A stretch of DNA of 64,000 nucleotides from Haliotis cracherodii (GCF_022045235.1 NW_027266281.1:4154001-4218000); one strand, 5' to 3'; numbered from the stretch's first letter, positions 21,050 to 48,315 are shown. Notes: generated by a model not told the origin, from the sequence alone. Numbers and translations: made by a program.

Positions 21050-22229
21050 GTAAGATGTTTACGATCGATCTGCAAAGATGTTGTTTTTTCCTTTTGCTGT
21101 GTAAACTTGGTTGTGTGCTTGATGTAAGGTTTGCATGTTGTGTTGTGATACTATCAATTTATTTCTACCTTATCAAAGTACGTACTACTTTAATATTCTT
21201 TTCAAATGTTCCATGTATAGTTTTACAGGAGAGTTAAATTCTTGTTAAAAAATAATTGTATTTTTAATGTTCGAGTAATCTTCCACACAAGTATCTGTAA
21301 ATCAAGCATGACGTGTTGAAAGGCCGAATCATATATCCTTTTTGGTCAAACCGAATTAGTCATTAGTAACAATAGAACGTCAAAACCCTTTCCATATCCA
21401 ATAGAAATCTTTGCATAAAGCAAAGTCGATTGTACAATTCCGACTATATTATGGGCAAGAAAGGGATGGTACTCTCTGTTGTGTTTGGCGCAAACACAAA
21501 AACAGTTACATAATATACATGCGTTCTATTTGGTCGGAACTGTCACTAACTTTCTTCACGTACAGTAAACAGTATTCTCAATCATATGCTTTGCTGTATA
21601 ACTTGTCCCTGAATATATGTAGCATAATGAAAACTAAATTTTTACATTATATTTTTGAGGACATTATCTTTTGAAACACAACTAAAATTCTTTTACCAAC
21701 AGATGTTACCATTGATTGCTGCGCTTTTTGGAAAAACCCACACAGCCCACCATTCTTAATTGATAACTAATATCCTGAATAATATTTTTAAAGCAAACCC
21801 ATTTTAAACAAAAGTCAAGTTCCTATTTCAACAGAAGTTACCATTTATTATTACCACTATCTCATCATACAAACCATTAGAAACGTACTTCCTAGCAGAT
21901 ATGATGATATCATTTCCATTTGCCAATACGATATAGATCAGAAGATATTTCTATGAGAATCTCAATATCACTTCATTTTTGGCACAGTATAAGACGCTTC
22001 TCGACTACAACCATGGAAAAATAAACTGGGCACCATATTGTATGAATAGTTATGGTAATATTTGTTTAAAGCATCATGTAATCAGTCAGACTGTTGTGTT
22101 TAACGCCGCTTTGAACAGTATTCCAGTTATATCATAGCATGTCAGCTTATTGTGCGAGAAAAATATTATATCTTATTGAGGAGGATTTCGTCAAATTCAA
22201 AAAGCTATTAGTAGCAGGTATCGAAACAT

Positions 22230-22750
22230 GAGTCTACTACTATGATATCGAGTCACCATTCCACTTTTGCGGCAGCATCAAAGAAATTCATCAAGATCAG
22301 TGAAGAAAGTTATGGCCGCTGTATTCTTGGATGCAATGAGTGTGATCCTTGTTGATTGCTAAGAAAGTCAAAATACGATTACCAGTGCCTATTTAGTTTG
22401 ATTCCTCGCCTGAGGTATTTTATTAAAGAAAAGCTGCGAGGAATGGTACTTCATGACATGCATCTTCTCACTCACCTCGACTTGCAAAGGCGGATGTGTG
22501 ACAATGAGGGTTCAAAGAGCTTTCTCATCCTCCATACTCGCTAGATCTGGCACTAACTGATTTTCACCTGTCTCCTAAACAGAAAGAACACCTTCGTGGA
22601 AAGTGCTATCACGACAACGATGACCTCAAAGCTCTCATGAACGGGGTTTTCAGGGTGGCTTAAGTTCTTCCTGACCGGAATTGAAAAGCTTCACTATCGA
22701 TATGAGAATAGTATTCATAAACAGGGAGATTATGTTCAAAAATATAATTA
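22230..22750 (+). mobile_element. Degraded mariner transposase fragment
   Basis: KVMAAVF.DA..VILVD, then HPPYSLDLALTDFHL..KEHLRGK (YSPDLAP.D motif), and a GDYV terminus. Confidence 0.82.
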
Positions 22751-22927
22751 ACAGCACTTTCACAATTGTTGGATTTGTTTGTTAGGCGTGGATTATTTTT
22801 ACCAGCTCACACATGCCCAATACACATGGCAGTTGGATTAATGATACATGAACAGTATGGCTGCTGGTAGTTGTGAGATGAATGAGTACAATTAGCCCCA
22901 ATTGGCTACAAAGATCAACCCGAATGA

Positions 22928-22936
22928 CCCCCCCCC

Positions 22937-22967
<31 letters not shown>

Positions 22968-22973
22968 ACACAC
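22928..22973. repeat. Poly-C followed by (CA)n
   Basis: Seen directly. Confidence 0.98.
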
Positions 22974-23339
22974 TCCGATGGCGTTGTGTCGCCTTCACAA
23001 ACATAAGCATCCTATTTAACGCTGACACATAATGATGATACAATCGGTATTGAACAATGGGTTGTCGCTTTTGTTTAAGAAATTGTATAACAACCTAATG
23101 AACCAGGTATGGTGTGGTGGTTTTACCATGTTTATAGGATTTTGTATTTATATTTTATTTCAACGTGGAAATGATTTTATGCGTGTGCATATCTTCGAAT
23201 GATAAAAATCCGTGAAGAGCGTGTTCCTTTCAAACAAACACATGCATATTTTGATAAATGGAACAACCTCGTTTGCATAGAAAGAATCCCAAATGCCTTC
23301 TTCAGTTTTTCAGTCTTATTTCTCTCTCTCTTCTCACAA

Positions 23340-24571
23340 GTAGATGTTTTTTGTATACTTCTGACAGTCCGACATCATTTAGTATTTTTTACTGATTTGG
23401 GTGCAACGAAGTCGTTGTTGGAGAAGTGCTTCACACCGTACCTAAAACTGAAGTGAAACTCGTCTCCAACAGCGGAAGAATTGCAAAGTGTGCAGACACG
23501 GTCTTCCCGTTTGAAGTAATAGGCAGTTTTCGAATTTTGGTATTTTTTAAAATGTTGGTAATATAAACCTTGACAAGAAACATTCTTGCCACTGTTGAAC
23601 AAATTGGTATTGAAGAATACTCTTGACCTTTGAAACCAGCCATGAAGTTGAGCAAGTAGATGGGTTTTTATATACTTCTGACAGTCATTTAGTATTTTTT
23701 ACTGTTTTTACTGAATTTGCATCATAGTCTTGTATCAAATATTATAAAATTATATAACATATTAGATAACTTTGTGGGTCCGTTAAAATTCGTTAATTTA
23801 TGCAAGAAGAAGATCATCCGTTTAAGTACTTTAATTTTGAGGGATTCACTGCCATGTTCCCCCTAAACCACAACATTGGGTGGTGAATTCCTCAGACCAG
23901 TTACTATTCTTAAAACTTTCAGTTGCATTTTCTTCATTATTTCTAAACTTTCAAAACCCCATATTTCGGAACAGAAGAGAAGGATTGGCACTACCATCAC
24001 ATCAAACGCCTTCAATAGACAATCTAATGATAGGTTAACATTTCGTGTTCTTTTTATTAGGCAGTACATTACTTTTGTCGCGTTTGCTCTCAGTGATTTC
24101 ATACAAAACACACATTTTCTATTTCTGAGAAGATTTATACCTAGATATGTGTAATTATCAACAATTTCCAGTATCTTTTCCTCAAAATATAATATCGATT
24201 TGGTTGATTCGGCTGGGCCCCTTCCAAAGGATATTTTCATTTTGCTTCCATTGTAAGCAATATTGATTAAAGGAATCGATTTTTGTAATCCAAATTGGGT
24301 ATCGCTAAATATCGTCCGCATAGAGTAATACTAAAATGTGTAATCATACAGTGATGCCATTTCTTGATATACGATAAAAAAAAACTAAATCCTGGTATTG
24401 TTATTGTCTTTGTCAGTTTATTTATCTGTTCAACATTTATATTTTTTACGTATATATCCGATTTATCAAGGTTGTTATGTTTAATTTTGTTAGTGACATT
24501 TGTATAGATGCATTATATGGTCGGCCATTATATGTATCAATTGGCGTCATATAGTTTGAATATAGCTCGGG
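23340..24571 (-). mobile_element. Degraded LINE ORF2 (RT C-terminal region and C-terminal Cys motif; RTE-X/L2-group-like)
   Basis: YTYLGI, VVPILLFCSEIWG and RVCTLCNSSAVGDEFHF, with frameshifts. Confidence 0.85.
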
Positions 24572-27500
24572 AGAGTGGGCAGTGCAAGGGTGAGTGGGCG
24601 GTGCACGTCTGAATAGAGAGGTGAGTGGGCGGTGGACGTCTGAATAGAGAGGGGAGTGGGCGGTGCACGTCTGAACAGAGAGGTGAGTGGGCGGTGCACG
24701 TCTGTATAGAGAGGGGAGTGGGCAGTGCACGGGTGAGTGGGCGGTGCAAGTCTGAATAGAGAGGTGAGTGGGCAGTGCACGGGTGAGTGGGCGGTGGACG
24801 TCTGAATAGACAGGTGAGTGGGCGGTGGACGTCTGAATAGGGAGGTGAGTGGGTAGTGCACGTCTGTATAGAGAGGTGAGTGGGCGGTACATGTCTGAAT
24901 AGAGAGGGGAGTGGGCGGTGGACGTCTGGATAGAGAGGTGAGTGGGCGGTGCACGTCTGAATAGACAGGTGAGTGAGCAGTGCAAGTCTGAATAGAGAGG
25001 TGAGTGGGCGGTGCACGTCTGAATACAGAGGGGAGTGGGCGGTGCACGTCTGTATAGAGAGGGGAGTGGGCGGTGCAAGTCTGAATAGAGAGGTGAGTGG
25101 ACGGTGCACGTCTGTATAGAGAGGGGAGTGGGCGGTGGACGTCTGAATAGAGCGGTGAGTGGGCGGTGGACGTCTGAATAGAGAGGTGAGTGGGCGGTGG
25201 ACGTCTGAATAGACAGGTGAGTGGGTAGTGCACGTCTGAATAGAGAGGGGAGTGGGCGGTGGACTTCTGTATAGAGAGGGGAGTGGGCAGTGCACGTCTG
25301 AATAGAGAGGTGAGTGGGCGGTGGACGTCTGAATAGAGAGGTGAGTGGGTAGTGCAAGTCTGAATAGAGAGGTGAGTGGGCGGTGCACGTCTGAATACAG
25401 AGGGGAGTGGGCGGTGCACGTCTGTATAGAGAGGGGAGTGGGCGGTGCAAGTCTGAATAGAGAGGTGAGTGGACGGTGCACGTCTGTATAGAGAGGGGAG
25501 TGGGCGGTGGACGTCTGAATAGAGAGGTGAGTGGGCGGTGGACGTCTGAATAGAGAGGTGAGTGGGCGGTGGACGTCTGAATAGACAGGTGAGTGGGTAG
25601 TGCACGTCTGAATAGAGAGGGGAGTGGGCGGTGGACTTCTGTATAGAGAGGGGAGTGGGCAGTGCACGTCTAAATAGAGAGGTGAGTGGGCGGTGGACGT
25701 CTGAATAGAGAGGTGAGTGGGTAGTGCACGTCTGTATAGAGAGGTGAGTGGGCGGTGGACGTCTGAATAGAGAGGGGAGTGGGCGGTGCACGTCTGAACA
25801 GAGAGGTGAGTGGGCGGTGCACGTCTGTATAGAGAGGGGAGTGGGCAGTGCACGGGTGAGTGGGCGGTGCACGTCTGAATAGAGAGGTGAGTGGGCAGTG
25901 CACGGGTGAGTGGGCGGTGGACGTCTGAATAGACAGGTGAGTGGGCGGTGGACGTCTGAATAGGGAGGTGAGTGGGTAGTGCACGTCTGTATAGAGAGGT
26001 GAGTGGGCGGTACATGTCTGAATAGAGAGGGGAGTGGGCGGTGGACGTCTGAATAGAGAGGTGAGTGGGCGGTGCACGTCTGAATAGACAGGTGAGTGAG
26101 CAGTGCAAGTCTGAATAGAGAGGTGAGTGGGCGGTGCACGTCTGAATAGAGAGGTGAGTGGGCGGTGGACGTCTAAACAGAGAGGTGAGTGGGCGGTGGA
26201 CGTCTGAATAGACAGGTGAGTGGGTAGTGCACGTCTGAATAGAGAGGGGAGTGGGCGGTGGACTTCTGTATAGAGAGGGGAGTGGGCAGTGCACGTCTGA
26301 ATAGAGAGGTGAGTGGGCGGTGGACGTCTGAATAGAGAGGTGAGTGGGTAGTGCACGTCTGTATAGAGAGGTTAGTGGGCGGTGGACGTCTGAATAGAGA
26401 GGGGAGTCGGCGGTGCACGTCTGAACAGAGAGGTGAGTGGGCGGTGCACGTCTGTATAGAGAGGGGAGTGGGCAGTGCACGGGTGAGTGGGCGGTGCACG
26501 TCTGAATAGAGAGGTGAGTGGGCAGTGCACGGGTGAGTGGGTGGTGGACGTCTGAATAGACAGGTGAGTGGGCGATGGACGTCTGAATAGAGAGGTGAGT
26601 GGGTAGTGTACGTCTGTATAGAGAGGTGAGTGGGCGGTGCACGTCTGAATAGAGAGGGGAGTGGGCGGTGGACGTCTGAATAGAGAGGTGAGTGGGCAGT
26701 GCACGTCTGAATAGAGAGGTGAGTGGGCGGTGCACGTCTGAATAGACAGGTGAGTGGGCAGTGCACGTCTGAATAGAGAGGTGAGTGGGCAGTGCACGTC
26801 TGAATAGAGAGGTGAGTGGGTGGTGCACGTCTGAATAGAGAGGTGAGTGGGCGGTGGACGTCTGAATAGACAGGTGAGTGGGTAGTGCACGTCTGAATAG
26901 AGAGGGGAGTGGGCGGTGGACGTCTGTATAGAGAGGTGAGTGGGTAGTGCACGTCTGTATAGAGAGGTGAGTGGGCGGTGCACGTCTGAATAGAGAGGTG
27001 ACTGGGCGGTGCACGTCAGAATAGAGAGGTGAGTGGGCAGTGCACGGGTGAGTGGGCGGTGCAAGTCTGAATAGAGAGGTGAGTGGGTAGTGCACGTCTG
27101 AATAGAGAGGGGAGTGGGCGGTGCACGTCTGAACAGAGAGGGGAGTAGGCAGTGCACGTCAGAATAGAGAGGTGAGTGGGCGGTGCACGTCTGAATAGAG
27201 AGGGGAGTGGGCCGTGCACGTCTGTATAGACAGGTGAGTGGGCGGTGCACGTCTGTATAGAGAGGTGAGTGGGCGGTGCACGGGTGAGTGGGCAGTGCAC
27301 GTCTGAATAGAGAGGTGAGTGGACGGTGCACGTCTGTATAGAGAGGTGAGTGGGCGGCGCACGGGTGAATAGAGAGGGGAGTGGGCGGTGCACGTCTGAA
27401 TAGAGAGGGGAGTGGGAGGTGCACGTCTGTATAGAGAGGGGAGTGGGAGGTGCACGTCTGTATAGAGAGGTGAGTGGGCGGTGCACGTCTGTATAGAGAG

Positions 27501-28684
27501 GTGAGTGGGCGGTGCACGTCTGAATAGAGAGGTGAGTGGGCGGTGCACGGGTGAATAGAGAGGTGAGTGGGCGGTGCACGTCTGAATAGAGAGGGGAGTG
27601 GGCGGTGCACGTCTGAATAGAGAGGGGAGTGGGCAGTGCACGTCTGTATAGAGAGGTGAGTGGGCGGTGCACGTCTGTATAGAGCGGTGAGTGGGCGGTG
27701 CACGGGTGAATAGAGAGGTGACTGGGCAGTGCACGTCTGAATAGAGAGGGGAGTGGGCAGTGCACGTCTGTATAGAGAGGTGAGTGGGCGGTGCACGTCT
27801 GTATAGAGCGGTGAGTGGGCGGTGCACGGGTGAATAGAGAGGTGACTGGGCAGTGCACGTCTGAATAGAGAGGGGAGTGGGCGGTGCACGTCAGAATAGA
27901 GAGGTGACTGGGCAGTGCACGGGTGAGTGGGCGGTGGACGTCTGTATAGAGAGGTGAGTGGGCGATGCACGTCTGTATAGAGAGGTGAGTGGGCGGTGCA
28001 CGGGTGAATAGAGAGGTGACTGGGCAGTGCACGTCTGAATAGAGAGGGGAGTGGGCAGTGCACGTCTGTATAGAGAGGTGACTGGGCAGTGCACGGGTGA
28101 GTGGGCGGTGCACGTCTGAATAGAGAGGGGAGTGGGCAGTACACGTCTGTATAGAGAGGTGAGTGGGCAGTGCACGGGTGAGTGGGCGGTGGACGTCTGA
28201 ATAGGGAGGGGAGTGGGCAGTGCACGGGTGAGTGGGCGGTGCACGTCTGTATAGAGAGGTGAGTGGGCAGTGCACAGGTGAGTGGGCGATGCACGTCTGA
28301 ATAGAGAGGTGACTGGGCAGTGCACGGGTGAGTGGGCGGTGCACGTCTGAATAGACAGGGGAGTGGGCAGTGCACGGGTGAGAGGGCAGTGCACGGGTGA
28401 GTGGGCGGTGGACGTCTGTATAGAGAGGTGACTGGGCAGTGCACGGGTGAGTGAGCGATGTACGTCTGAATAGAGAGGTGAGTGGGCAGTGCACGGGTGA
28501 GTGGGCGGTGCACGTCTGAATAGACAGGGGAGTGGGCAGTGCACGGGTGAGTGGGCGGTGGACGTCTGAATAGAGAGGTGACTGGGCAGTGCACGGGTGA
28601 GTGGGCGGTGCACGTCTGAATAGACAGGGGAGTGGGCAGTGCACGGGTGAGTGGGCGGTGGACGTCTGAATAGAGAGGGGAGTA
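24572..28684. repeat. 4.1-kb G-rich satellite of 31-bp (GTGAGTGGGCGGTGCACGTCTGAATAGAGAG) and 19-bp (GTGAGTGGGCAGTGCACGG) monomers, inside a LINE endonuclease region
   Basis: Direct periodicity. The minus-strand monomer reads PLYSDVH(C/R)PL. Confidence 0.97.
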
Positions 28685-29063
28685 GTCAATTATATTAGAA
28701 TCAGACACTTTTATCTTTACAAGCAGTTTTACCTGTCATTTTATCATTTCCTAGCCTGTCATTACCAATAAACAGATTTATTTTTTTACAGATTTTAATA
28801 AGTTATTTATTCTTGTTTTGTCCTGTGTTTTGTCATGCCCTCACGCGTTGCAACTCAACTTCATGGAACACAGACTCAGGGTTAAGTTCTGATCTCATTT
28901 CATCAATATCCAATTGAAACACTTCAATTATGTATTCGTCAAGAATTTCGTACTCGCATAGATTATATGTCCTGGCATTATAGTCCCCAATTAAAATGAC
29001 TTTGTGTGAAGAAACCATACAATTTACAAATGATAAATTGACAACGTCCCAGCTTGCAATCAA
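28685..29063 (-). mobile_element. LINE APE endonuclease fragment
   Basis: VILIGDYNART, then LFIGNDRLGNDKMTGKTACKDKSV...IIDY. Confidence 0.85.
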
Positions 29064-29659
29064 GGATTCTAAAAGATTACGGGTCCATCATAACTTCATC
29101 TGAGGCAAAGACTTACCCTTAGTGCGAACACCTGGCATCATCATTGAATTTCAGCAATCCATTTATATAATTTGATTACCTATTACGCCAAATGGAATCT
29201 GTTTCGTTGGAAAATTGAAACGGTTATTCTCTAGCATTGGCGTTTCATATTTCTACAATAGTTGTTTACGACATGAGTATTAGTTGATTACAATAGCTGG
29301 TGTCACATAGCACAAAATGATAGTTGTATGCCTGTAATGTCTTGGTTACTTTGACATGACAATTTGCCATCGAGGATCACACATTTCATCTAGAGGTAAG
29401 CTAATGTTTTAAATAATAGTTTACTCAGGAAACAATGAGTTACCTGAACAGACAAGTAAATAGTTATATTTCCCTTTAAAATAACACGTGGTTTAACACA
29501 CACAAATATTTAACAAACAGAAGTTATCATTATACATGCCATGAAAGCCAGACGGGAATGGGTTTTAAATAGTCCATGTACCGGTCATATACATGTAACA
29601 TAGATAAATGTGATGTGCAATACTGTTTGGAATTGAATGCGATATGTAAATAATGGAAC

Positions 29660-31455
29660 GTGTTCATTGGGTAAAACATTTCAAAACATTATGCAATATA
29701 AGGTGTTGAAGATCTTCTTTAATTGACCACAAATTACATTCTTGACTGCCCTGTAACAAGATCAGAAATCACAGACAGTATTCGTGCATTAAAGAACAAT
29801 AAATCAGCTGGAGTTGAACATATCATAAGCGAATACCTTAAACACTCATCAGATAGTATCAATAGTATGTATGAAAATGGTCTTTTTCCTGAAAATTGGT
29901 CATTAGGAATTATCATTCCATTAAATAAGAAAGATGACACAACAGTTCCAGATAACTATCGGGTGTCCTTAGCAAAGTATTCACTTCAATTCTATGCAAG
30001 AGATTATTTTTCTGGACAGACACGCTTTGTGTTATTTCTGAATGCCAGTCAGGCTTTCGGAAGGGGTATTCCACTGTAGATAACTGTTTTGTCCATAATG
30101 CTCTTGTACAACGATTCCTTTCACGTAAAGGGGATAAGTTTTACGTCGCTTTTTTATTTTTTAAGGCGTTCGATTCCATACACCGTAACCTTCTTTGGAA
30201 TTTGCTTTATAAACGGGGATTAAGTACAAAATTGGGTAGAATGTTGCAGTCAATCTACAAGAACGTTACGGCAAGTGTAAGGTCTAACAATCGTATGTCT
30301 GAGGCATTCGATTGCCCTTTGGGTGTCACGCAAGGCTGTGTACTTAGCCCGTTCTTGTTCCAGTTTTTTTATAAATGAAATAGTTCTTGAGATGGAAGAG
30401 GAGTGTCCGTTTGGTGTACAGCTCCATCCAGACATTATAACATCCTTTTACTTCTATTTGCAGATGATTTGATACTCGTTGACGATAGTGTTTCTAACCT
30501 TCAGAAGAAACTAAGCGACCTTGAGAATTCTTGTAACACTCGGAAAATGTCAGTTAATATGTCCAAGACCAAAGTTGTTGTATTTAAGAATGGTGGTGGT
30601 TTGTCACGTTTCGAAAAGTGGTTTTACAAAGGGAAAAGGGTTGAAGTTGCTTGCGGTTATACTTACTTGGGTTTGTATTTTAATAACAGGCTTAACTGGT
30701 CTAAAACTCTTGATAAGATTGCCCTGCAGGCGTAAAGGGTATGGATAACTATCCTCAGAGGTATACATTCGCTACAACCCTTTTCACCAGATTTCTACTT
30801 TCACATTTTCGATGCGAAGATCATGCCAGTGCTATTGTATGGTACCGAGGTCTGGGGGTTTGAAAATGATGACAAATTGGAAACTGTGCAGTTATATGCT
30901 TGTAAACGTTTTTGGGGTTTAAAAGTATCCGCATCAGACAACGCTGTATTGGGCGACTGTGGTAGATACCCTATTCGCGTTGCTTTGACCAGATGTCTGA
31001 CATATTGGCTGAACATACTAAAGATGCCAGACTTCCGTTTACCAAGAAAGTGCTACAATATGTTGTACCTGTATGATGAACATGGTCGTGTCAATTGGGT
31101 AACTAAATTAAGGAATTGTCTTTGCAAACTTGGGTTCGGAGATGTATGCAGGTTCCAAATGTATGGAAACCGAAAGGTGTTTTGTAATATGTTTAAACAA
31201 CGTTTGAAAGACAATTTTCAGCAGATCTGGCATAGCGAACTTCTTGCAAGTTCAAAAATGTCATTTTATGCTTGTTTTAAAACTTATGTTAAATGTGAAC
31301 CTTATTTGTCATTCTTAAATTCGCAAAATATGAGAACAACTCTCACGAGAATCAGACTGAGTTGTCATACTTTGGAAATTGAGAACAGACGTCATTATAA
31401 AATTCCAAGAAATTTAAGAAAATGCAAACTTTGTAAATTAGACTGTGTTGAATAG
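29660..31455 (+). mobile_element. Degraded LINE reverse transcriptase (RTE-X/L2-group-like)
   Basis: FPENWSLGIIIPLNKK..PDNYR, GVTQGCVLSPFLF, LLFADD, YTYLGL, PVLLYGTEVWG and RKCKLC, with frameshifts and stops. Confidence 0.93.
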
Positions 31456-31539
31456 TAATACATGGAAATTACTGGATCAGTGTTATGCAAATATTTATGC
31501 TTCTATTTCCTACCAAGGTGAACAATCAGACTAGATGTT

Positions 31540-32640
31540 GGCTAAGGCAGGGTAATCTATGGATGGGTTTTTTGTTTTGTTTTAATAAATGATCTCATTA
31601 CAGCCCTCAAACAGGCACAATGGGGCATTCGTGCATATGGTAAGGATATTCCAAAAGTCTTGCTTGTCGACGATACTTCACTTGTTAACACACCACCGAG
31701 GGGCTTTCAAACATCCCTTGATATTGTACATACATATGCCCAAAGGTTGCGCCTACCCTATAGCCCATCAAAAAGTGCAATTAATGTGTTCAGCGAAGCG
31801 AAACGCAAGGGGCATATCTTCCACTGTAGCCATCGGTAATCCACACATTACTACAACTGTTTCTACGGTATATGTTGGAATACTCTTAACGTATAATCTT
31901 TCTTGCAAAACAGGAATTGAAAAGGAGTCTTATTGAAGACAAAATATTAACACCCTTATATATTTAGGATTAAATAGTTCTGATCTTCATCCAATTTCAA
32001 GCGTGAAAATGTACCTCAGAATAATACACAAAACCATCACTTGTGCATGTGAATTACCCTTGACATCAAGGGACAACATACCGATCTATTTGAAGGCACA
32101 CAATGATATTTTGCACGCGCTGTACAGGATATTGATAAAAAATCTGCTTCAGAGTCTACTATTGCGAACCTTGGACTTTGGACAATTACTGCATATATTC
32201 ATAAATGCAAACTTTTAATTCTCGGTCGTTTATGCAACCTGAACCTGAATTGTAATACCAGTTTTTTTTGTGTGCGTCCATTTCTAGCCCTGTCTGTTCA
32301 AAGGCAATCTGTCAAGCACATAAATCAACACATACAATTTGGGTAGCCACCTTTGTACATAAGTGCAATACAGTACTTTCCCTCCAAAATTTTACATATA
32401 CGACGAACAATTATTTCTCACAAATGTATAAAAAAAACTCTGGCATGTCCCGTTCCAAGATAATTCATACAAAATTTACATACCGTGTACTTTGGCAATT
32501 AGTTTTTCTCTACCCGGAATACCGACCTGTCTAACAACTTTGTGTGAAAGTCTCATCACGCTGTAAGCATTCGAAAGAATACCTTCGACTATGACAACCA
32601 CATTATTTAACATTGTAAAACACTTATATCAGAAAGAAAT
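31540..32640 (+). mobile_element. Highly decayed LINE ORF2 remnant
   Basis: Scattered LRQG, YSPSKS and VYVGIL motifs in RT order. Confidence 0.45.
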
Positions 32641-32687
32641 GCGTTTTACCCTTTTCTTAATGACTCACTTGATGTTACAAAATATGT

Positions 32688-32857
32688 GGGGCGGTCGGGT
32701 AGCCTAGTGGTTAAAGCGTTCGCTCGTCACGCCGAACACCCGGGTTCGATTCCCGACATGGGTACAATGTGTGAAGCCCATTTCTGGTGTCCCCCGCCGT
32801 GATATTGCTGGAATATTGCTAAAAGCGGCGTAAAACCATACTCACTTACTTACTTAC
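32688..32857 (+). mobile_element. tRNA-derived SINE family A, full length
   Basis: A box TAGCCTAGTGG, B box GGTTCGATTCC, Asp-like GTC loop and (CTYA)n tail. 13-bp TSD TTACAAAATATGT at 32675-32687 and 32858-32870. Confidence 0.95.
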
Positions 32858-33599
32858 TTACAAAATATGTTGATTTCGAAATGGAAGACGAAACAGACAT
32901 GTTATCATGTTTGTGAAAAAGTGAAAAAGAATTTACTCACAATCTGGATCAACACATCTGGGAAACTATCATACTACATTTCGCCTATTATCTGTACAAC
33001 TAAAGCATCTTTTGATATATACTTTTAAGTTGATATCTGTCTCCGTATAGGTATTTGAATTTGATAGGTTGTGTGAAATTGTAAATATGTTATGCCTCTT
33101 TATTGTATTATGCTATCCACGTGTAACTGAATATACTTTCATTGTAATCTTCGGAATGACCACTGGGGGGAATTTAGAATATCTCTCCGTCTCTCTAACT
33201 TGTATTTTATGTATGGTTATACCCAGTGGTATCGAGGCTTCCTATTATTGTCATCCGTCAAATTTTGACATAACCCTTGTATGATTATTATGATAAGACA
33301 AAAGATTAAGATTGAATCAAAGGGAGTTTTAATTATTTGAGAGATCTGACACTTTTTTGTGTAAAACATCTTTTCAGAATTGTAATGGGCGATTGATGTC
33401 ACATCTGAATATGACACTGATACACGGAGTTATCTGAGCCTGGGGTGAGAATTATGGGCCTACTGGAGTGAACTGAACCTATTCTGAGTGAATTGTTAAG
33501 GGATTGACTTGAGCCTGCTACACCGGCAGGTACACTTCACTGTGCCCTCACCTCTTGTTCTTGGTAAAAGTGCAGTCAGTGATGGTAAATAGGGAGACA

Positions 33600-33690
33600 A
33601 TCACCAGATTGTCTGGTCCAGACTCGATTTTTTTTACAGACCGCCGTCATATAGCTTTAATATTGCTGACTGCGGCATTAAACAACAAAG
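33600..33690 (+). mobile_element. SINE family B, 3' fragment
   Basis: GATTGTCTGGTCCAGACTCGATT...GCGGCATTAAACAACAAA. Confidence 0.8.
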
Positions 33691-33704
33691 AGTAAAAAAC
33701 AATC

Positions 33705-34225
33705 ATCAAACCTCCGCAACTGCCTCCTCACAGTGGCATCATCGGCAGTAAAAGCTTTGGTCGGCGGGTGAGCACACACACAGTGACCAGAAGACTTCGG
33801 GCAGCAGGTAACAGGGCCTGTCGACCGTTCAGAGGACAGATGATGACATCTGAATTTCGACGCAGACGTCGTTCCCTACGGTGGAGCTGGCGTTATGGTG
33901 TGGGTTGGAATTTGTTGAGACCAGACAACCCCACTCGTCGTCATCTATGAAAACCTCGCTATATAGATGACATCATCCTACCAGTAGTGCTGCCCTACCT
34001 CGATCGTTCTGTACAAACACGACATGTTCTGTACAAACACGACATGCCAGGCCCTACACAGCTCGTATCGTACAGGACTTCCTTGCCAACAATAATGTCA
34101 ACTCCTTACCGTGACCGACATGTTCTCCTAACTTATCCCCTACAGAACACCTCTGGAACGCGATTGACAAGAGAGTTAGAGTCTGACCAGACCCTCCCGC
34201 TAACAGACAAGAGTTGATACAAGCT
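33705..34225 (+). mobile_element. Degraded Tc1 transposase fragment
   Basis: TVTRRLRAAG.RACRP and SPNLSPTEHLWNAIDKRVR. Confidence 0.8.
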
Positions 34226-35679
34226 CTTAGTTTAGTTTAAACATATTTTATTCTCATGAAAAGGATTGGGCACAAGTTATCACAACTTAGAACGCCCTCC
34301 CCCATCGATTTGCATGTATGCTCATTTACAGTTAATAAATCAAATGACAGAAAGGAAAGGAAAGAGATAGAAAAGCGTATGTACATTCACACTGCTCACT
34401 CAAACCTTTTTGTTTTCTTTATATATGTATGTACATTCCTAAAAGCTCTTACAACCTCTACAAGATGAAAGGAGCAGCTTGCCTCGCGGATAATCAGACG
34501 TTTGACGTTTTCCGTTCGACGCAGAGTCTTTACGAGTAATGATTCACGGGGTGGCCACATTCGGTATTTAAGTGACAATTTGTGTTTTAACTAATTGCAG
34601 TAAAAATCTGGATAATTCCTCTGATTCTGTTTGTCTGGTGTACGCTATTTAACCACAAAATGTCAAATTTTGAGTTAATCAACATTTTATGGAATTGTTG
34701 GATTATTGAATATACTTTACCTAAAACTTTTAGTATTTTAAGTTTTATTAATTGCATAACTGTTTATTCACGCGCGGTGTGGCAGATTGTAATTGAACGA
34801 GAGCAGGTATTGTAGACTAGCCTGTAAATAAGGCCAACACTGTAATTTGATACACCGTACTAATGAGATTATGGGAATTATCATAAGGAGGCTGTTGTTC
34901 GGGACTGTTATAATTTTTTTCATACCAAAAGTGGCAATGAATTTAAAAATTGCTTTCGTGTCACAGCATTCACTCAAGTTTTCCTCAATGTGCTTCAAAC
35001 ATAATTCCCATTGGTCAGTTCGACATCTCATATAATAAAATAATTATTTCGAGATTTCATAGAATGTGAGATATTCAGCCAGACGTTATGCAATAAAGAC
35101 GAATCGGTGATTTTTCTTCATTAAAATACGCACACGGGTACTTGTATATTGCACACCTAGTGTCACTCAATAGCCCAGTGTCATTAATGGAACGTTTTAC
35201 TTCAATACACAAGACCAAAGATGTGGCGTGCTGGGTTCTTCCGCTCTGTGGCCTCGTGTTTGTTAGTCATCATAAACAACGTATCGAATAGAAGTAACAA
35301 CAAGACATACAATTGGAAATGAGAAAGAAACCAAATAACTTGAATGTTGTTGATGATATTGCCAATGAATTGGAGTATGCTCGCATGAATTCGTATGATC
35401 AATTATAGTCTATTTGTGAGAGGTGAGACTGGGTTCATTAAAGATCATTACAATATGTACATAAAGTAAAACTTGTAAAACTTCTATAAAGGTAGCCGTC
35501 ATATAGCTGCAATATTGCTGAGTGAGGCAACAAACAAACCAAAATCTTGAAAGGTAAAATCCTACAAAAGGCCCATTTTGAAAAGTAATGTAATGACATA
35601 ATATAAAGTATATTTCATATACTACAATATACTTTGCACCCAATTAGTTAATGATTTAAGGAGACTGACCAAAACATGG

Positions 35680-36130
35680 GCGAAATATTTTAATGCCGCC
35701 AAACAATTATTTAGCTAAAGTTAAAATGAGTTGAATTATGTGCCATGGTGCTTGTAGACACATCTTTATGTATATGCAAAAGAAAAGCATGAGTTTTGAA
35801 CAAAGAAAAATATTCTTGGCCTGGGCGAAATATTTTGATAAGACCACAAATTAGCAAAGGAAGTTAGTCTCGGCCAAGGGCGAAATAATTTAATAACGCC
35901 ACACATTAGTTCTATTAAGTGAAAATGAACTGAATCATGTGTCATGATTGTAGACACACCTTTTATGTGTGAAGAAAAACCATGAGTTTTGAGCAAAGGA
36001 AAATATTGTCTTTTCCTAACGCCACACATAACTTGAGTTAAGTAAAAATGAGTTGAATTATGTGTCACGGTGCTTGTAGACACACCTTTATGTATTTGCA
36101 AAAGAAAAACATGCGAACAAAAATATTCTC
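35680..36130. repeat. Three imperfect direct repeats of a ~90-bp core upstream of the TATA candidate
   Basis: AAAATGA...TGTAGACACA.CTTTATGT...AAGAAAA.CATG at about 35723, 35922 and 36044. Confidence 0.75.
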
Positions 36131-36232
36131 GCCCACTATTCGCCTATGGGCCACTCTTCGTCCATGGGCCGTTTGGAGTGGGGTCAGCCAAGCTATTTCA
36201 GTGGCTTCACATGTTACACATCAACTCTAGCA

Positions 36233-36269
36233 TATAAATCCATTCCTTCACTTGCAGCAGCACCACACT
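36233..36269 (+). promoter_or_regulatory. Candidate TATA box and initiator
   Basis: TATAAAT at 36233-36239 and CCACACT (YYANWYY) with its A at 36265. Followed by ATGGTGAAG|GTAAGT. Confidence 0.5.
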
Positions 36270-37639
36270 GGGTACAACTCTTGACAATGGTGAAGGTAAG
36301 TAAACTGTTGTTTCCTGTATGTTATAAAGTTATATGTAAGGCTAACTAAAATACATTCTGCAGGGGAACCTACACTACGTACGAGTATTTAAGGAAACCC
36401 TGAGCCTAGAGCTGGAAAGGGGTGAGTATAGGCTACTACAGCTGAGAAAGGGATAATAGTGGAATGGAGGTGAATGTTTTATTAAAAATATATTCTGGGA
36501 TATGTACGAGACACAATGTTTACCGTTACCCACATGCTTAAAAGTTTTACTTTTGCTTCAATGTCAGATTTTATTTTGTACCTAGGTGTCTATCTGCTGA
36601 AATTAGTTCACTGGAATCAGTATAAAACGGACTTTAATTAATCCGTACCACCACTAAATTAAGTAAACTGCCGCGCAAAAGAAAGTATACACCCTTGTTT
36701 GTGCGGATATAGATATGGAACATTGTTGTGTTTCGGGCCTTAAGTTTTCAGTGGGTTTTTTTCAGCCGGGTAACGTATTGATAAGGTTTTGTAATGTTTG
36801 GGCAAATCAAATTTTAATTGTTACCTTCTTTTGCCGGGTAGTTTATCTTCATTGATCAGTAATGAAATCTGTCTTGTGTGGATTTCTTTTACTCTGAATT
36901 ACTGATTGTAATTATGGGACAATGTATTATAGCTCTCAAATTCGGAATAAATGTTTATACATCTCCGTCGCGCATCCGGTAGGCTGTTCGTCAACTTTGA
37001 TTGAAGCCTACACTGTCCTTGACTCAAATGTAACATAATATTACGGTTAATGACTATGAGAGGAAACTAAGTCTTTGCCAAATCACACATACTCAAGTTT
37101 GTTTTATTCCTACCTGTGTGTTGGAATATATACCTGTTTGTTGGCATACATACCTACTTGCTGCTATATATACCTACAGAATCCAATGTTTGTTTCCTTG
37201 TTATGATACATAAGGTCCACAGTAACTAGTTCCCAATATACTTCTCAACAAATATGGAAATATAGGGAAATATGTTATCTCAAAGTAGACACAATTTATG
37301 GATAACAACTTATTTAATATTGTAAAGGTGACGTTACGGTGGTAAGATCCTTATATTGTTGTCAAGCAAGACTGAATGAGGAATTTTATACAGAATATAT
37401 ATAGTCGGTAGAGGATTAACAGTAGAGGATTAACAGTAACAACAATTGCATACATGAGTGGGATAACATGAGTAGGCAATGACAACAGAAGGATAATGCT
37501 GTCACAACATGGTGGACAGAGAACACATGGGTGGAAGCCAACGGGACATAAAGCCTTTTAATCAGGATACGTTAGTAGGCGGATGGGAAAAAAATATGTT
37601 ATCTGTCCATGATGCACAAAATTGATTGTCATTATGAGT

Positions 37640-37882
37640 ATGAGTGAGTTGGGTTTAACGCCGCGTTTAACAGTATTGCAGCTATATCACGGCGAGTCAG
37701 CTTCATGTGGAAGGAAAGCCCGAAGTAATGCAGACGTTTACCACTTTGGTGAAACCCACGAGTACGGGTATGGTGCTGACAAACCTAGAAACATAATCGG
37801 GGCAAACCGGGATTCGAACCCGCAATCACAGGTTTCTGGCGGGCCCAAGGAAAGCAACTCTGCACAGCGAATCGTGGCCCCC
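37640..37882 (-). mobile_element. SINE family C
   Basis: Reverse complement of 48909-49164. Confidence 0.85.
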
Positions 37883-38460
37883 TGAACTTAGGGGAAAAAG
37901 AAACTATGACTAGAAACTATCTGAAGTGAGCGATATTATATAAAAAGGAACTATCATGGCGCTTTATCAGCCCTGAAAGAATACTTGGAGATGGTTGTAT
38001 CTAAAAAATATATAACTTAATATAAAACTTTTGAAAACTTAATAAAAACACAATTCACATAATATACAACTGCTGATGGGTATCTTAGACAGATTAAGAT
38101 ATTAAGATATTATATATTAAGATTTTTCAGCTTAAATGTACAACATTTCAAACATGGAAGGGACCATGCGGTTGCAAATTCAGTTCAGATTACTTTTTTC
38201 AAACTGTTGTTTAAATAGACATAATTAAATTTGACAAAATTTCAATTACATAAACAAACAAACTTTCTTTTGCCCCTCTGTTAATGTATTATATATCTTT
38301 TTGGTTCATATTTTTATGTGATACTGCTGCTGAGAATTGATAGAAAACAAATCTCACCACTTATGTCAACCACCGGTTTGCCTGCCTCGATGTTTTTATA
38401 TAATTTAATTGCTTTAATTTTGAAGCAATTTTCAGTTAATTCAAATGTTGATTCTTCAAG

Positions 38461-38515
38461 GATCCGACAAGAGTGCTGCTTCTCCTGCTGATTTGTCACC
38501 GGTGCTACAGCCTGC
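38461..38515 (+). CDS. Candidate signal-peptide exon DPTRVLLLLLICHRCYSL (phase 0 to 1)
   Basis: TTCTTCAAG acceptor and C|GTAAGT donor. Joined to MVK it gives MVKDPTRVLLLLLICHRCYSL. Confidence 0.5.
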
Positions 38516-38867
38516 GTAAGTTGGTAACTGTCGCTCACATGTATCGCATATCTCTTGCCCCATTGACACTTAACGTAGTATTCTATGGAATAACTAACAA
38601 CAATGGGTTTGAATTCAATCATTATTTTTTGGAAGTAAGTTAAGTACAAAATATTGGCGTCCAGATATTGAATCAGAAGTGATCAAAGATCCCCATTATT
38701 ATGATAAATGAATGGCATTATATAGACCTACTGTCCTATCCCCATATTGAAAACAGTCTGATTCAAACCTCTTGAACAAATTCAGGTGTCATCATTGGTG
38801 TGAGGAAAGATGTGAGGTTTCAGCTACATTGATCACGTGGTTTCTGAGGAGAAGAACATTATGATGG

Positions 38868-39331
38868 CAATCTCATTAAAAACAGATCTAAGTTCTCGTT
38901 GCCACTAAACAAAGATCTGAGGATATCCCATTACGGGTCACGTCAGAACGACCTTTCACGAATTAACTAGAAGTCGTCATCAGCCAATTAGAAAGCAGCT
39001 TTCTCTAGCTTTACGGCACTCGATTCAACCTGGCGACTTCCATTTCTGTCTACGCTTGAAAACTATATTGACCCAGTTATCGAACAAAAAATTCGAAAAC
39101 CGAACAAGCGAACATTTTGGAATGTCTAATATATGGTTGAGAGTGTATTGCAGTGTTAGCGTTTTCGAGGATGCTTGATTGTAAAATACATTCCGACTCT
39201 CACTTTCATAATCTGGGAAGCGATGCTTTGATAGGTCGGGTGAAAGATCGTTCTGAAGTGACCCATAATGGGATGGCCTCAGATCTCTGTTTTGCGACAG
39301 CTAGAACTAAGATCTGATTTTAATGAGATTG
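38868..39331. mobile_element. MITE with ~72-bp imperfect TIRs
   Basis: CAATCTCATTAAAAACAGATCT...GGGTCAC / GTGACCC...AGATCTGATTTTAATGAGATTG. Flanks ATTATGATGG / ATAACGATGG (8/10) may be a degraded 9-10-bp TSD, as in AcademH or MuDR elements (inferred). Confidence 0.85.
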
Positions 39332-39363
39332 ATAACGATGGATGATGTTTTGTATTTTCCAGT

Positions 39364-39412
39364 ATGGCGACTGGCAACCATATTGTATTTCTGATTATCT
39401 TGAACATACTTG
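39364..39412 (+). CDS. Candidate start/signal exon MATGNHIVFLIILNIL (phase 1), duplicated at 40570-40618
   Basis: TTTTGTATTTTCCAG|T-ATG acceptor, G|GTACGT donor and a hydrophobic core. Confidence 0.55.
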
Positions 39413-39739
39413 GTACGTCATAAAGTGACTATCTCAACTACCACGTTTCAGACCAATGGTCATATAATGTTTTGAGGAGATGTTTTACTAAAAGAAATAT
39501 TAAAGCTGGCTGGCTGCATATAGAAATCCCATTTTTATGCCTTGAATACACTTGAAACCCTTTATAGCAGCAAACACCCACTAGGTCCACTGAATCCACG
39601 AGGCAAATTATCGGTTTGATAATTGTACAGTTTGTGTATTGTAGTTGTTCCTCCAGACACATGTCCTGTCGTCATTGACGTCCAGACAGTATCTGGATTC
39701 ATCTGTGAAAAGGACCATTCGACAACGCCCGACAAACTG

Positions 39740-44340
<4,601 letters not shown>

Positions 44341-44479
44341 CACAATTAAAAAAAAATTTCACAATTGTCGCATCTACGGACAGTGTTTCAATGACACTAG
44401 TCATAGGAAGGGCACTCTTCACGATCAGATAACTTCTTTGGCATTGGAAGTAGTGGTAGTTGCAGCAGCAGCATATGTG

Positions 44480-44762
44480 GAAGATGTTCAATACATTTAG
44501 TGTCAATGATGATTATAAACTCCATAATGCCCATAGCAAGGAAAAACTTCGGGCCGAGTATAAATGTAGACTAAAGAACATCTGGAGTTCAGAGCATAAA
44601 GTTAAAGCCACAAATACTTATGCTGTACCTGTCCTTTCGTATTCTCTTGTTGTTGTTTATTGGAGGAACCAAGAAATTCACGGTGTGGACACCCTCACAC
44701 GAAGAATCATGTCAGACAATAGATCCAACCACCCTTGCTCTTCCCTTAATCGCTTACATTTA
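44480..44762 (+). mobile_element. R4/Dong-clade LINE fragment
   Basis: KVKATNTYAVPVLSYS...W...EI..VD.LTRRIM....NHP.SS..RLHL is the characteristic post-RT thumb of R4/Dong elements. Confidence 0.8.
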
Positions 44763-44910
44763 CAAATCTGTCTATCAATATATATAGACAGTATATATAT
44801 ACATAGTGTTTATTCCTAATACACGATATTTACCATCCCCAAACACACAAGCGTGATAGCCTCTTTATCATATAATGTCATTCCTTAATTCTGTGCTTCA
44901 ATATTGCTTT

Positions 44911-46060
44911 CAGACAGACAGACAGACAGAAGTTTATTTAATATTTTAGGCCATATGACCTATAGTACAGTAGTGTTGTTTTTTTGTATCAACATTGTAC
45001 AGTCACGTGTAGGTAATAATAAGTTTACATAAAATATTAACGTCTAATTTCAAAAATCTTCTTCAGGAATATTGACAGAGATGATATTGTATTTGCAGTG
45101 CAGGAGTTCAACAAATTTTTCATCAGTTGTTCATCTTTGTACATAGTTGAAATCATAGGGAGGTATCTATTTCTAAGAAACTGATAATATTTACAAATGA
45201 GAAGTACATGAAACTCATCCTCAACATAGCCTTCATTACAATAACGGCATAAACTACTTTCTTTATCTTGTACATTTTTCTTTCTGAGATTGTTAACATT
45301 AAAATTATGTAATGATATACGTAATTTACACAACGATCTTCTCAAAGTTCTATCCTGAAGTACAGATACATATTTTTCAGGAACAAGTAAAGATTATATA
45401 TTCGTATAATTGCATAAAAACCTTGAGGATAATATTTGACAGTGCCAATCTTGTGAAAATATATCAACTAATCTTTCCTTAAGCATGAAGATAAATAGTT
45501 TATCATTTCCAACATCTTGAGATATCCATGCAAGAGAAAAACCAGACATACAAAGAATATTTCTGATATCAGACACCCATAAACAATATTTACCCTTTTC
45601 ATCCAAGGCTTTTAACATATTATAACAATGAAGAGGAAATATATTTGAATTCATACGAAGTAGCTTTATCCAATATTTAACTGCCCGTAGCTGGGATGAA
45701 ACAAAAAGACTGGTACGACCAGTTTCTCCTAGAATGGCTTTGGTAGAGGCATATTTACCGACACCTAAAGAACGTTTAAAGCACATGGCATGAATTTTTC
45801 TATGGAATCATTATAATGACATCCCCATATTTCTGAACCATACAGCAGAATCGGTGCTATTTTTCTGTCAAAAACAATATGGAAAGATATAAATTTGTTT
45901 TCTTTAAAAACTCTATAGACAGGAATCAAGGCTTTAGATGCTTGCAGAGCCAACTGCTTACAAGCTGTTGACCATGCTAATCGAGAAGATACAGTCAATC
46001 CTAAATATTTATAATATGAAACAATATTGACTGTCTTATTACAATCCGTCCATTTTTCAA
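44911..46060 (-). mobile_element. 5'-truncated LINE (RTE-X-like) with a (TCTG)n tail
   Basis: PILLYGSEIWG, ILGETGR and LCRYCNEGYVEDEFHVLLIC, with a microsatellite tail at 44911-44929. Confidence 0.9.
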
Positions 46061-46085
46061 ATTTATCGCTTTCCCTCTCTCACAA

Positions 46086-46354
46086 GACCCGTGAAGATTC
46101 CAGGGTAAAACAGGTCTTCAGCAACCCATGTTTGCCATAAAAGGTGACTATGCTTGTCGTAAAAGGCGACTAACGGGATCGGGTGGTCAGGTTCGCTGAC
46201 TTTGTTGATGCATGTCATCGATCCCAATTGCGTGGATCGATGCTCATGATATTAATCACTGGATTGTCTGGTCCAGACTGGATTATTTACAGACCACCGT
46301 CATATAGCTGGAATATTGCTGAGTGCGGCGTTAAACAACAAACCAACCACCCAA
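46086..46354 (+). mobile_element. SINE family B, full copy
   Basis: 12-bp TSD CCTCTCTCACAA at 46074-46085 and 46355-46366. The empty site is visible in copy 1 of the host element. Confidence 0.95.
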
Positions 46355-47246
46355 CCTCTCTCACAAACATTACCGAAACATTGCGAGTTTTCCTGAAATG
46401 CGCGCATAGATATTCATTACGTCACAGGGTAAGTGATGTGTCAGTCGGACAGTGACAGTAGTCAATATAGTTCCAACTGAAATCTGTTTCTTATGCAGTG
46501 GCGAAACAACATATATGCAAAGCAACAATTGTTTTTAATTGCCTTTTGCTGCAATCCATCGGTTCGCTAGAGTAACTGCCCTTTGTCAAAGGGAAGCTAC
46601 TCTAACCCTAGTCTATGAGACGTCACGGCCACGGTCAGACGTTGTTGACAGTCGATCAGTCCTGTCATAACGTTAAGAAGTGTAGTCAGATGTACACACA
46701 GCAACAAAACGAAACAAGGTAACAATTCAAACATATCGGCCAAATCCAACTATTTTAATTTGTGGAGAAGGTTTCAAGCCGCAGAGGTCTACAAACACAG
46801 ACCTTGGCTAGGCCTCTTGCCCTCGCAAAAGTGTTTCGAAATTTATATCTCCAAAGTTGCCAAAACTTATAAAATGCCTCAGCTACGTCACAGTAGGGAC
46901 ACTGATTTTCAGTATATTAGACTGTTCTTTTGATAATGATAGCAATTATCCCTGTAGTTTATCCAGACTCCCGATGGTTAATTCTGACTCGATCGCCGAA
47001 TGCCGAGGGAGACGCCATGTTTGTTTATAAACAGTGAAAGTAGTCCCTACTTGACCTTTGATATTTGCATCTCTATCTGCATATGACCCCAACGGATATC
47101 GTTTTTATCCGTTGGCTTTATCCTGCCGAGAAACCTACCCATTATATGATAATATATATATATGTGTAACACTCTGTAACGAACAACAAAGTCCCTTCGT
47201 CTACAGACTAGGAACAATCTTTACATATGGCCCGTTTGTTTTCCAG

Positions 47247-48315
47247 TCTACACTGACCTGAAGCTAGACATCCTGATTGTAGAAGATGTTTCACGATCCA
47301 TCGGCAAACCCAACTTTGACGAAATGAAACGATTCCAAGAGAGTATGGTAAACTCTACCACCATAGGCCGTGATGCTGTTAACGTTGCATTGATAGAGTT
47401 TTCTTCAAACGCTAGAGTGGTACTGTAAACAGGGAATTTTTTGCGACCGTTTTATTATTGCGAGTTTTGCGAACGAGACTCAATCGCAAAATTTAAAAAA
47501 CGCAAAAAAATGAGTATAAATAATACATACATACATACTTTATTCATTGCAACACGTCATCAAATGTTGAAATCATCAACCAAAACCACAAGTTACTCAA
47601 AAAGTTAAAAACACAAATGAATGCAGAGTAGTCACACAATACATCACAATTGACAGTGTAAACAGACCAATTAGCGTCACTGTTACCCCTTGCAATCCCT
47701 TCCGGTCAACTTTCCGGCCAACTCAGATTAACTAGCTTCTGAGAGAAGCTGTCTATTGTTTGGTAATCGAGGGGTCATCTCAACACGGCAACTCGCAAAA
47801 GTATCTCGTCGCAGTATTGTCTTTGATGTGGTATTCGCAATATTTTAACGGCGCAGAAATATAGCTGTTTACAGTATTCAGATTCAATGAATATAGCAAC
47901 AGCAAGTCGGGTGTTCTGGCAGCTCTCAAACAGCAGACATACGAAGAGGGTCCCTCTACGAACATTGGCGATGCCATCAAGCTGGCTACAAGTACAATTT
48001 TCAATGGCGACCGCAATGACGCTGACAACAAGGTCATCATGTTTACCGATGGGTACACCACAAGGGAGGACCGGGAGGCCATTGCTGCCAGTATTGGTTA
48101 TCTGAAAGCCAAAGCTGAGGTATGTGTTGTTGCTATCTCGGAAGTAGATGCCAATTCCACAATCCACCTAGCTAATTGCTTCGAGACCTTCCAACATCTT
48201 CCAGATTGGCTCCCCTGATGCAGTCAGTGCTATTCTACAGAAGATGATGGCTGGTCCCGTCCTGTCGCAGAACAGCTTCGCCCAGCCGCCCAGAAATGAT
48301 ATTTACAGGGGATGA
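47247..48315 (+). pseudogene. Terminal VWA-domain exon interrupted by a MITE and a 4-bp insertion
   Basis: TTTTCCAG acceptor. Reads LDILIVEDVSRSIG (MIDAS DxSxS)...VALIEFSSNARVV|FRFNEY...STNIGDAI...VIMFTDG...EVCVVAI...(shift at 48171-48174) LIASRPSNIF...YRG*. AATAAA at 48346-48351. Confidence 0.92.
47423..47874. mobile_element. 452-bp MITE with a TA target-site duplication
   Basis: TA-CTGTAAACAG ... CTGTTTACAG-TA. Removing it and one TA restores the VWA frame exactly. Confidence 0.93.

What the first reader, a model, noticed from the sequence alone, without database searches (positions are those of the whole stretch)
24572..28684. 4.1-kb satellite born in place from a LINE endonuclease catalytic motif
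Seen: on the minus strand the LINE APE reads GDYNART...NDRLGNDKMTGKTACKDKSV..IIDY and enters the array in frame as SPLYSDVH. The monomer encodes PLYSDVH(C/R)PL plus one base. The last monomer exits as HCPLSRAIFK into non-repeat DNA that leads on to the RT remnant. Known: APE domains end with an (I/V)DY motif followed by the catalytic SDH..P motif. Inference: ~30 bp around the catalytic Asp/His was amplified more than 100 times at its native position, so this is a traceable satellite birth with both parental flanks retained.
Basis: partly seen in the sequence, partly recalled or inferred. Interest (0 to 1): 0.7.

Follow-up and report, generated by a model that had tools for sequence, protein, structure and literature searches.

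The report
Minisatellite grown inside a dead LINE
A 31-base piece of a dead jumping gene is repeated about 120 times between the remains of that gene, while sister copies elsewhere in the genome still show it once or with a few partial repeats, so it likely grew in place by miscopying: a well-documented but ordinary example of a known way that repeats arise.

Summary
The array is real: 141 units at 24573-28679 (119 of 31 bp, 22 of 19 bp). Array-free LINE copies carry the unit once at this site, and it encodes the endonuclease's SDVH motif, which aligns to SDH of L1. All 138 unit-junction matches in the genome lie in this array and one 95-99.5% duplicate. Corrections: the true VIDY motif is deleted (44 bp); the 3' exit 'SRAIFK' is not parental; the parent was already dead and was copied as cargo in a multi-copy block carrying a VWA exon. 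Block copies show a series: single unit, 19-bp part at 2-12 copies, then 50-bp and 31-bp arrays here. An 8-bp direct repeat 31 bp apart likely set the register. Contigs under three other organism labels also hold tandem units, so the birth is old. A second seed in the same block, not at a catalytic motif, did the same. Likely neutral; a new member of a known kind, which this scan has already noted in other genomes.

The parts
28685..29087 (-). 5' flank: decayed APE endonuclease of a LINE (GDYN motif to KDKSV)
   Evidence: translation; 83-84% to free copies over 28705-28998; free copies hit Pfam PF03372 and PF00078
28704..28705 (-). junction of a 44-bp deletion that removed the canonical VIDY motif; shared by the block copies on C6, C14, C24, C25, C26, C18
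28676..28683 (-). first copy of the seed direct repeat (ACTCACCT in the single-unit C25 copy, recurring 31 bp later; ACTCCCCT here)
24573..28679 (-). minisatellite array, 141 units: 119 x 31 bp and 22 x 19 bp
28080..28679 (-). part of the array built mostly of 50-bp (31+19) units, same unit order as in the C18 duplicate; likely the oldest arrangement
   Evidence: flank+31+19+31 also in contigs of organisms B and C
24546..24571 (-). remnant of a ~270-bp dispersed repeat inserted behind the motif; joined to the last unit after loss of about 68 bp
   Evidence: junction bridged in run X3
24406..24540 (-). LINE sequence resumes (region after the endonuclease)
   Evidence: 79-90% to free and block copies
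24336..24431 (-). site of a ~1.2-kb deletion of the RT core
   Evidence: 1,291 bp in free copy L032 against 95 bp here
23396..24380 (-). end of RT and C-terminal region of the same LINE, with stops and frameshifts
21628..56619 (.). stretch duplicated in inverted orientation at C18:4912999-4965956; its part 23.4-48.4 kb recurs in pieces at 75-90% identity on C6, C14, C18, C24, C25, C26

Best explanation
The array is a minisatellite whose unit is ten codons of a dead LINE endonuclease, and it likely grew in place by strand slippage and unequal exchange, with no function. Shown: the unit exists once in free LINE copies; one copy lost its VIDY motif and most of its RT, took a ~270-bp insertion with a target-site duplication, and was spread as cargo of a larger duplicated block. 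Shown: block copies hold the 19-bp 3' part of the unit 1, 2, 5, 6, 10 or 12 times. Inferred order: (1) a 19-bp duplication made 31+19; (2) misalignment between the two copies of the 8-bp repeat ACTCACCT, then 50 bp apart, duplicated 31+19; (3) exchange between the 31 and 19 registers gave 31-31 neighbours; (4) slippage and unequal exchange of single units and of blocks expanded them; (5) a deletion removed the 3' flank; (6) the region was duplicated on C18, where the second array was cut short.
For: Single unit in 12 free copies and in the C25 block copy. 19-bp series by TRF and flank mapping: C25 1.0, C14 2.0, C26b 5.3, C26a 6.0, C6a 9.9, C24 12.0. All 138 junction matches and all 172 core matches in the genome are accounted for by the two arrays and by copies of this LINE; all 21 matches of the 19-bp junction lie in six block copies. 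The C25 copy has an exact 8-bp repeat at exactly the array's period and register, one of only 2 such repeats of 8 bp or more at 15-60 bp spacing in 1,947 bp. The array starts with 31+19 units and ends with a 19-mer; 7 hybrid units in the two arrays join the 31-mer head to the 19-mer at TCA; runs of 4-5 identical variant units recur 12-37 units apart. The copies with the 44-bp deletion form one clade, bootstrap 100. A second seed in another LINE remnant of the block is single in 4 copies and 10-12 times repeated in the 2 sister copies on C26.
Against: The 19-bp duplication has no exact flanking microhomology, only an offset TCA, so the first step does not fit the direct-repeat model well. The clade of 19-bp carriers has weak support (41 and 52), so a single origin of that step is compatible with the data but not shown. 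Shuffles give about 1.7 repeats of 8 bp or more per 1,947 bp: the seed is notable for its place and spacing, not for existing. No 31-31 or 50-50 two-copy intermediate was found in this assembly. The order of steps 1-3 rests on array polarity, not on dated intermediates. Absence of function was not tested.
Confidence: 0.85

Rival explanations
1. The 19-bp repeats arose several times, or spread between block copies by gene conversion, because the site is a duplication hotspot; the 31-bp array is the extreme of that hotspot.
For: Support for a single clade of 19-bp carriers is only 41-52. Identity between window and duplicate is highest beside the array (0.2-0.9% substitutions) and falls to 2.5-3.6% 10-25 kb away, as conversion near the array would give.
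Against: The best tree does group all 19-bp carriers. None of the 12 free copies and none of the 3 copies with a different deletion has a repeat, so the motif is no hotspot in the family at large.
Confidence: 0.2
2. The repeat was made by reverse-transcriptase stuttering during retrotransposition, or was carried to new sites by a deleted non-autonomous LINE.
For: The unit lies inside a LINE, and repeat-bearing copies stand on five contigs. Ahmed and Liang suggest that retrotransposition may start such repeats.
Against: Repeat-bearing copies share more than 10 kb of flank beyond the LINE, with other element remnants and a VWA exon, so they are duplicates of one insertion. Members of that clade (C25) have a single unit, so the repeat postdates the insertion.
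Confidence: 0.04
3. The array has been kept or expanded for a function, for example as a regulatory or chromatin element of the neighbouring VWA gene family, or as a coding repeat.
For: Tandem units are present under four organism labels and deep in two (A and D). The VWA exon 18.5 kb away is 94-97% conserved between block copies against about 80% in non-coding parts.
Against: Copy number runs from 1 to 141 between block copies; the duplicate lost two thirds of the array with 480 bp of flank; every frame through the array region has 8 or more stops; the window holds nine or so unrelated arrays of like size.
Confidence: 0.05
4. The array length is an assembly artefact, or the C18 duplicate is the second haplotype rather than a second locus.
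For: In run X3 a contig over a stretch identical in both copies (29185-29400) has depth 34, like the window-only junction (31 and 20), with no doubling.
Against: Units are varied and ordered differently in the two arrays. Short-read depth on the array is about 100 times the flank in X3. The duplicate's homology ends at 21628 without a gap and no N lies in the 90 kb fetched there. X3 may be another individual, and contig depth is a poor measure.
Confidence: 0.1

Closest known systems
Transposon-derived minisatellites of the human genome (Ahmed and Liang 2012, PMC3389668; part 2 of 4 of the text read, supplements not read)
   Same: Unit over 20 bp taken from a transposon and lying inside it; 7,276 of 31,472 human minisatellites are of this kind, 601 from L1; most at one locus; partial arrays in related species.
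   Different: Mean copy numbers given there for Alu-derived arrays are 2.3-2.4; this one has 141 units, two unit lengths, and paralogues that keep the early stages.
Minisatellite birth at 5-10-bp flanking direct repeats (Haber and Louis 1998, seen only as described in the review PMC6947457; passages read)
   Same: An 8-bp direct repeat bounds the unit at the array's period; later growth by slippage, conversion or unequal crossing-over.
   Different: The 19-bp step has no exact flanking repeat; the 50-bp and 31-bp periods share one seed.
Tandem repeats from LINE ORF2: chicken HinfI (CR1), PROsat of Phodopus, seal Pvc20 (review PMC9659126; passages read)
   Same: Coding sequence of a LINE is the source of the repeat.
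   Different: PROsat and HinfI are described as satellites holding part of a LINE; here the whole unit is 31 bp of ORF2 and still sits in the parent.

Membership tests
Transposon-derived minisatellite | unit matches a transposon sequence | tested here: met
   unit present once in 12 free LINE copies and in the C25 copy
Transposon-derived minisatellite | array lies inside the parent element at the homologous site | tested here: met
   5' junction in register; LINE resumes about 35 bp behind the array after a deletion and an insertion remnant
Transposon-derived minisatellite | arrays absent from unrelated sites | tested here: met
   138 of 138 junction matches and 172 of 172 core matches accounted for; limited to 1 and 2 mismatches
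Direct-repeat-seeded minisatellite (Haber and Louis model) | 5-10-bp direct repeat bounding the 31-bp unit in the single-copy ancestor | tested here: met
   8 bp at 31-bp spacing in C25; 6 bp in a free copy
Direct-repeat-seeded minisatellite (Haber and Louis model) | such a repeat bounding the 19-bp unit | tested here: not met
   no exact repeat of 7 bp or more at 19-bp spacing at this site in C25; only an offset TCA
APE-type non-LTR retrotransposon (parent) | APE endonuclease followed by reverse transcriptase | tested here: met
   Pfam PF03372 and PF00078 in free copy L034; model pLDDT 93.9, top Foldseek hits are L1 endonuclease, E 1.5e-7
APE-type non-LTR retrotransposon (parent) | SDVH is the SDH motif of the endonuclease | tested here: met
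   profile aligns SDvh to L1 and exonuclease III SD-H and vvDY to KIDH/IDY (that second stretch is not significant alone); SDxH in 78 of 150 homologues by my pattern, none of the 78 without the extra residue. Catalytic role of these residues is recalled.
APE-type non-LTR retrotransposon (parent) | clade (CR1, L2 or other) | not tested
   no library of classified elements on hand
Satellite DNA in the usual sense | very long arrays, often many loci, heterochromatic | tested here: not met
   4.1 kb and 1.4 kb at two loci; chromatin state not testable
Non-autonomous element carrying a tandem repeat | copies at independent insertion sites | tested here: not met
   repeat-bearing copies share over 10 kb of flank

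The most novel reading that the evidence does not exclude
The duplicated VWA-gene block is a natural replicated experiment in minisatellite birth: about a dozen copies carry the same latent seeds (19/31/50, 37, 20, 40 and 48 bp), each expanded to a different degree in a different copy and species, so birth order, register switching (19 to 50 to 31) and growth rates could be read on one tree. The bolder form: once seeded, the array drives conversion and deletion around itself and so shapes the gene family.
Probability: 0.25. Interest if true: 0.45.

Novelty: new member of a known kind. Interest (0 to 1): 0.22.

Why it matters
It adds no new mechanism. Its worth is as a clear case: the single-copy ancestor, several early stages and two long arrays stand in one genome, and related organisms appear to hold the array at different sizes. 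That makes the order of steps in minisatellite birth testable with long reads, and gives a polymorphic marker beside a duplicated gene family.

Tried and rejected
Structure as a driver: three units fold weakly as DNA (-2.1 and -6.0 kcal/mol) and the G-rich strand has no canonical four-G3 quadruplex pattern; rejected as the main cause, though shorter G-runs are many. Coding repeat: 8-20 stops per frame on the LINE strand, over 100 on the other. Single-sequence search of the free endonuclease against solved structures found nothing; the profile did. Pfam did not recognise the window's own endonuclease or RT-end fragments. The AU test was uninformative because the constrained tree equalled the best tree; I did not test the opposite constraint. 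No RNA holder was listed; no inference drawn. The raw-read run X18 gave only 23 reads and was not used. Look-alike search among earlier findings was empty. Four literature searches listed no paper on this locus or on a repeat from an SDH motif; the library lacks most subscription papers, so this is no proof of absence. The LINE clade and the identity of the inserted repeat (SINE-like is my recalled label) were not established.

Full report
Observation. TRF finds a 31-bp array at 24589-28683 with 50-bp and 19-bp sub-periods, among about nine other large arrays in the window. Decomposition on the minus strand gives 141 units from 28679 to 24573: 119 of 31 bp and 22 of 19 bp, the 19-mer being the 3' part of the 31-mer; 31-mers are 90% identical pairwise. 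The first ~20 units alternate 31 and 19; the rest is mostly 31, and the last unit is a 19-mer.

The parent. The 446-bp 5' flank matches 41 places in the genome (a lower bound). Of 30 loci fetched with a free copy as query, 24 showed the motif; 12 are free-standing LINE copies with a single unit, reading KSVIDYVIVSQMCLP.FSDFNIIDYSPLYSDVHCPLTFT. A free copy has Pfam endonuclease and RT domains. Its endonuclease model (pLDDT 93.9) matches L1 endonuclease first. A 70-sequence profile aligns SDVH to the SDH of L1 and exonuclease III and VIDY to L1 KIDH (this stretch is not significant alone). SDxH is the norm in this family (78 of 150 homologues matched my pattern, all with the extra residue). That these Asp and His residues are catalytic is recalled knowledge.

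The parent was dead and was copied as cargo. The window copy also lacks about 1.2 kb of RT. Copies on C6, C14, C24, C25, C26 and C18 share the VIDY deletion, most show a ~270-bp insertion with a target-site duplication behind the motif, and they share pieces of flank up to window 34-48 kb at 75-90% identity. A probe from 38.2 kb finds 13 long matches at about a dozen places on C6, C9, C18, C24, C25 and C26. The block holds a VWA-domain exon (Pfam) that is 94-97% conserved in the five other copies listed. In trees of non-repeat flanks the deletion-bearing copies are one clade (100). The copies are therefore segmental duplicates of one old insertion, not new retrotranspositions.

A graded series. 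At the same site the 19-bp part stands 1.0 times on C25, 2.0 on C14, 5.3 and 6.0 on C26, 9.9 on C6 and 12.0 on C24. One further copy (C18:6.746 Mb) has the site partly deleted, one (C6:2.62 Mb) ends before it, and one (C9) has lost it. All 21 exact matches of the 19-bp junction pattern fall in six block copies. The 31-31 junction has 138 matches with up to one mismatch: 105 in the window and 33 in an inverted duplicate at C18:4.962 Mb. The unit core has 172 matches with up to two mismatches: 151 in the two arrays and 21 in fetched LINE copies. The duplicate spans window 21628-56619, begins with nearly the same unit order, has 48 whole units, and then joins window 24095 at a short shared sequence.

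Mechanism. In the single-unit C25 copy an exact 8-bp repeat, ACTCACCT, bounds the unit 31 bp apart; it is one of 2 repeats of that length at 15-60-bp spacing in 1,947 bp (shuffles: 1.7), and only 6 bp in a free copy. This is the arrangement of the Haber and Louis model as described in PMC6947457 (passages). With one added 19-mer the same repeat bounds 50 bp, which is the period at the start of the array. Seven hybrid units in the two arrays join a 31-mer head to a 19-mer at TCA, showing exchange between registers, and runs of 4-5 variant units recur at 12-37-unit distance, showing block duplication. I infer the order single, 31+19, (31+19)n, 31n. Against: the 19-bp step has no exact flanking repeat, and the clade of 19-bp carriers has support of only 41 and 52.

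The 3' junction. The parent continues HCPLTFT. In the window about 68 bp behind the last unit are lost and the array abuts a 26-bp remnant of the inserted repeat, after which LINE sequence resumes. A short-read contig bridges this junction. 'Both parental flanks retained' is thus true only loosely.

Age and reality. Of 21 runs listed, 17 hold part of the 5' flank, under four coded organism labels. I laid 5 of them. Contigs of organisms B and C cover 31+19+31 without gaps; B, C and D have contigs across 31-31 junctions (60, 108 and 71-72 letters laid). Summed depth on the array is about 3,000 in A and 2,000 in D, 150-600 in C and lower in B, against contigs of 5-35 beside it. Depth of this kind is no copy number, and run X3 may be the assembled sample. 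If the labels are species, the tandem arrangement predates their split. Earlier notes on this genome call it an abalone; I did not test that.

Internal control. In the 3' part of another LINE remnant in the block (window ~32300) a 37-bp piece is single in four copies and repeated 10-12 times in the two C26 copies, which are sisters (100). A 20-bp repeat is at 2-3 copies in the window and 8, 30, 45 and 105 in four others; 40-bp and 48-bp arrays vary too. In-place birth is routine in this block and needs no catalytic motif.

Comparison. Ahmed and Liang count 7,276 transposon-derived minisatellites in human, 601 from L1 (part 2 of 4; supplements not read). PMC9659126 lists repeats from LINE ORF2 in chicken, hamster and seal (passages). 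This scan's own notes list eight such cases in other genomes, one from an endonuclease (unchecked AI notes, not support). Four searches (listings and abstract starts only) showed no paper on this locus.

Verdict. Real, born in place from the SDH-type motif of an already dead LINE, likely neutral, and a new member of a known kind. Its one merit is the preserved series of stages. Interest 0.22.

Noticed in passing
window 47180-48215 (+): A VWA-domain exon is split by a ~450-bp high-copy element (47422-47874); the C18 duplicate and four other block copies lack the insertion, and the exon is 94-97% conserved among them, which suggests a duplicated gene family with this copy interrupted.
   Followed up: partly
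window ~32290-32335; C26:1406989-1407444 and C26:1459133-1459513: A second minisatellite (37 bp) born inside another LINE remnant of the block: single in four copies, 10-12 units in the two C26 copies.
   Followed up: yes
window 37111-37177: A 20-bp repeat at 2-3 decayed copies here stands at about 8, 30, 45 and 105 copies in other block copies.
   Followed up: partly
window 21628-56619 against C18:4912999-4965956: Substitution divergence from the inverted duplicate rises with distance from the array: 0.2-0.9% at 22-33 kb, 1.2% at 33-35 kb, 2.5-3.6% at 37-54 kb. Unexplained; conversion or haplotype structure.
   Followed up: no
window 54069-56321 (+): A 48-bp array (45 units; 16 in the duplicate) is open for 750 codons in one frame; probably because 48 is a multiple of 3 and the unit has no stop.
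   Followed up: no
window 56263-56661 (-): Open frame with NHL repeats (Pfam PF01436, E 1.2e-9), present twice in the duplicate region.
   Followed up: no
window 29723-31452 (+), 33696-34214 (+), 45040-46079 (-), 57515-57775 (-): Further decayed elements: an RT remnant in the opposite direction to the array's LINE, a Tc1-type transposase piece, and other LINE fragments.
   Followed up: no
window 39745-40522 and 40951-41728 (approx.): A ~1.2-kb direct duplication (identical open frames at 39942 and 41148) that the C18 duplicate seems to lack.
   Followed up: no
window 16-3919, 9923-10638, 11771-14068, 14443-15317, 58151-59589, 60908-63303: Six more unrelated minisatellites of 36-79 bp; about a quarter of the window is tandem repeat.
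   Followed up: no
L032:3363-5264: Free copies of the LINE have a long Asn/Asp/Val-rich repetitive open frame with a poly-Asp run in frame before the endonuclease.
   Followed up: no
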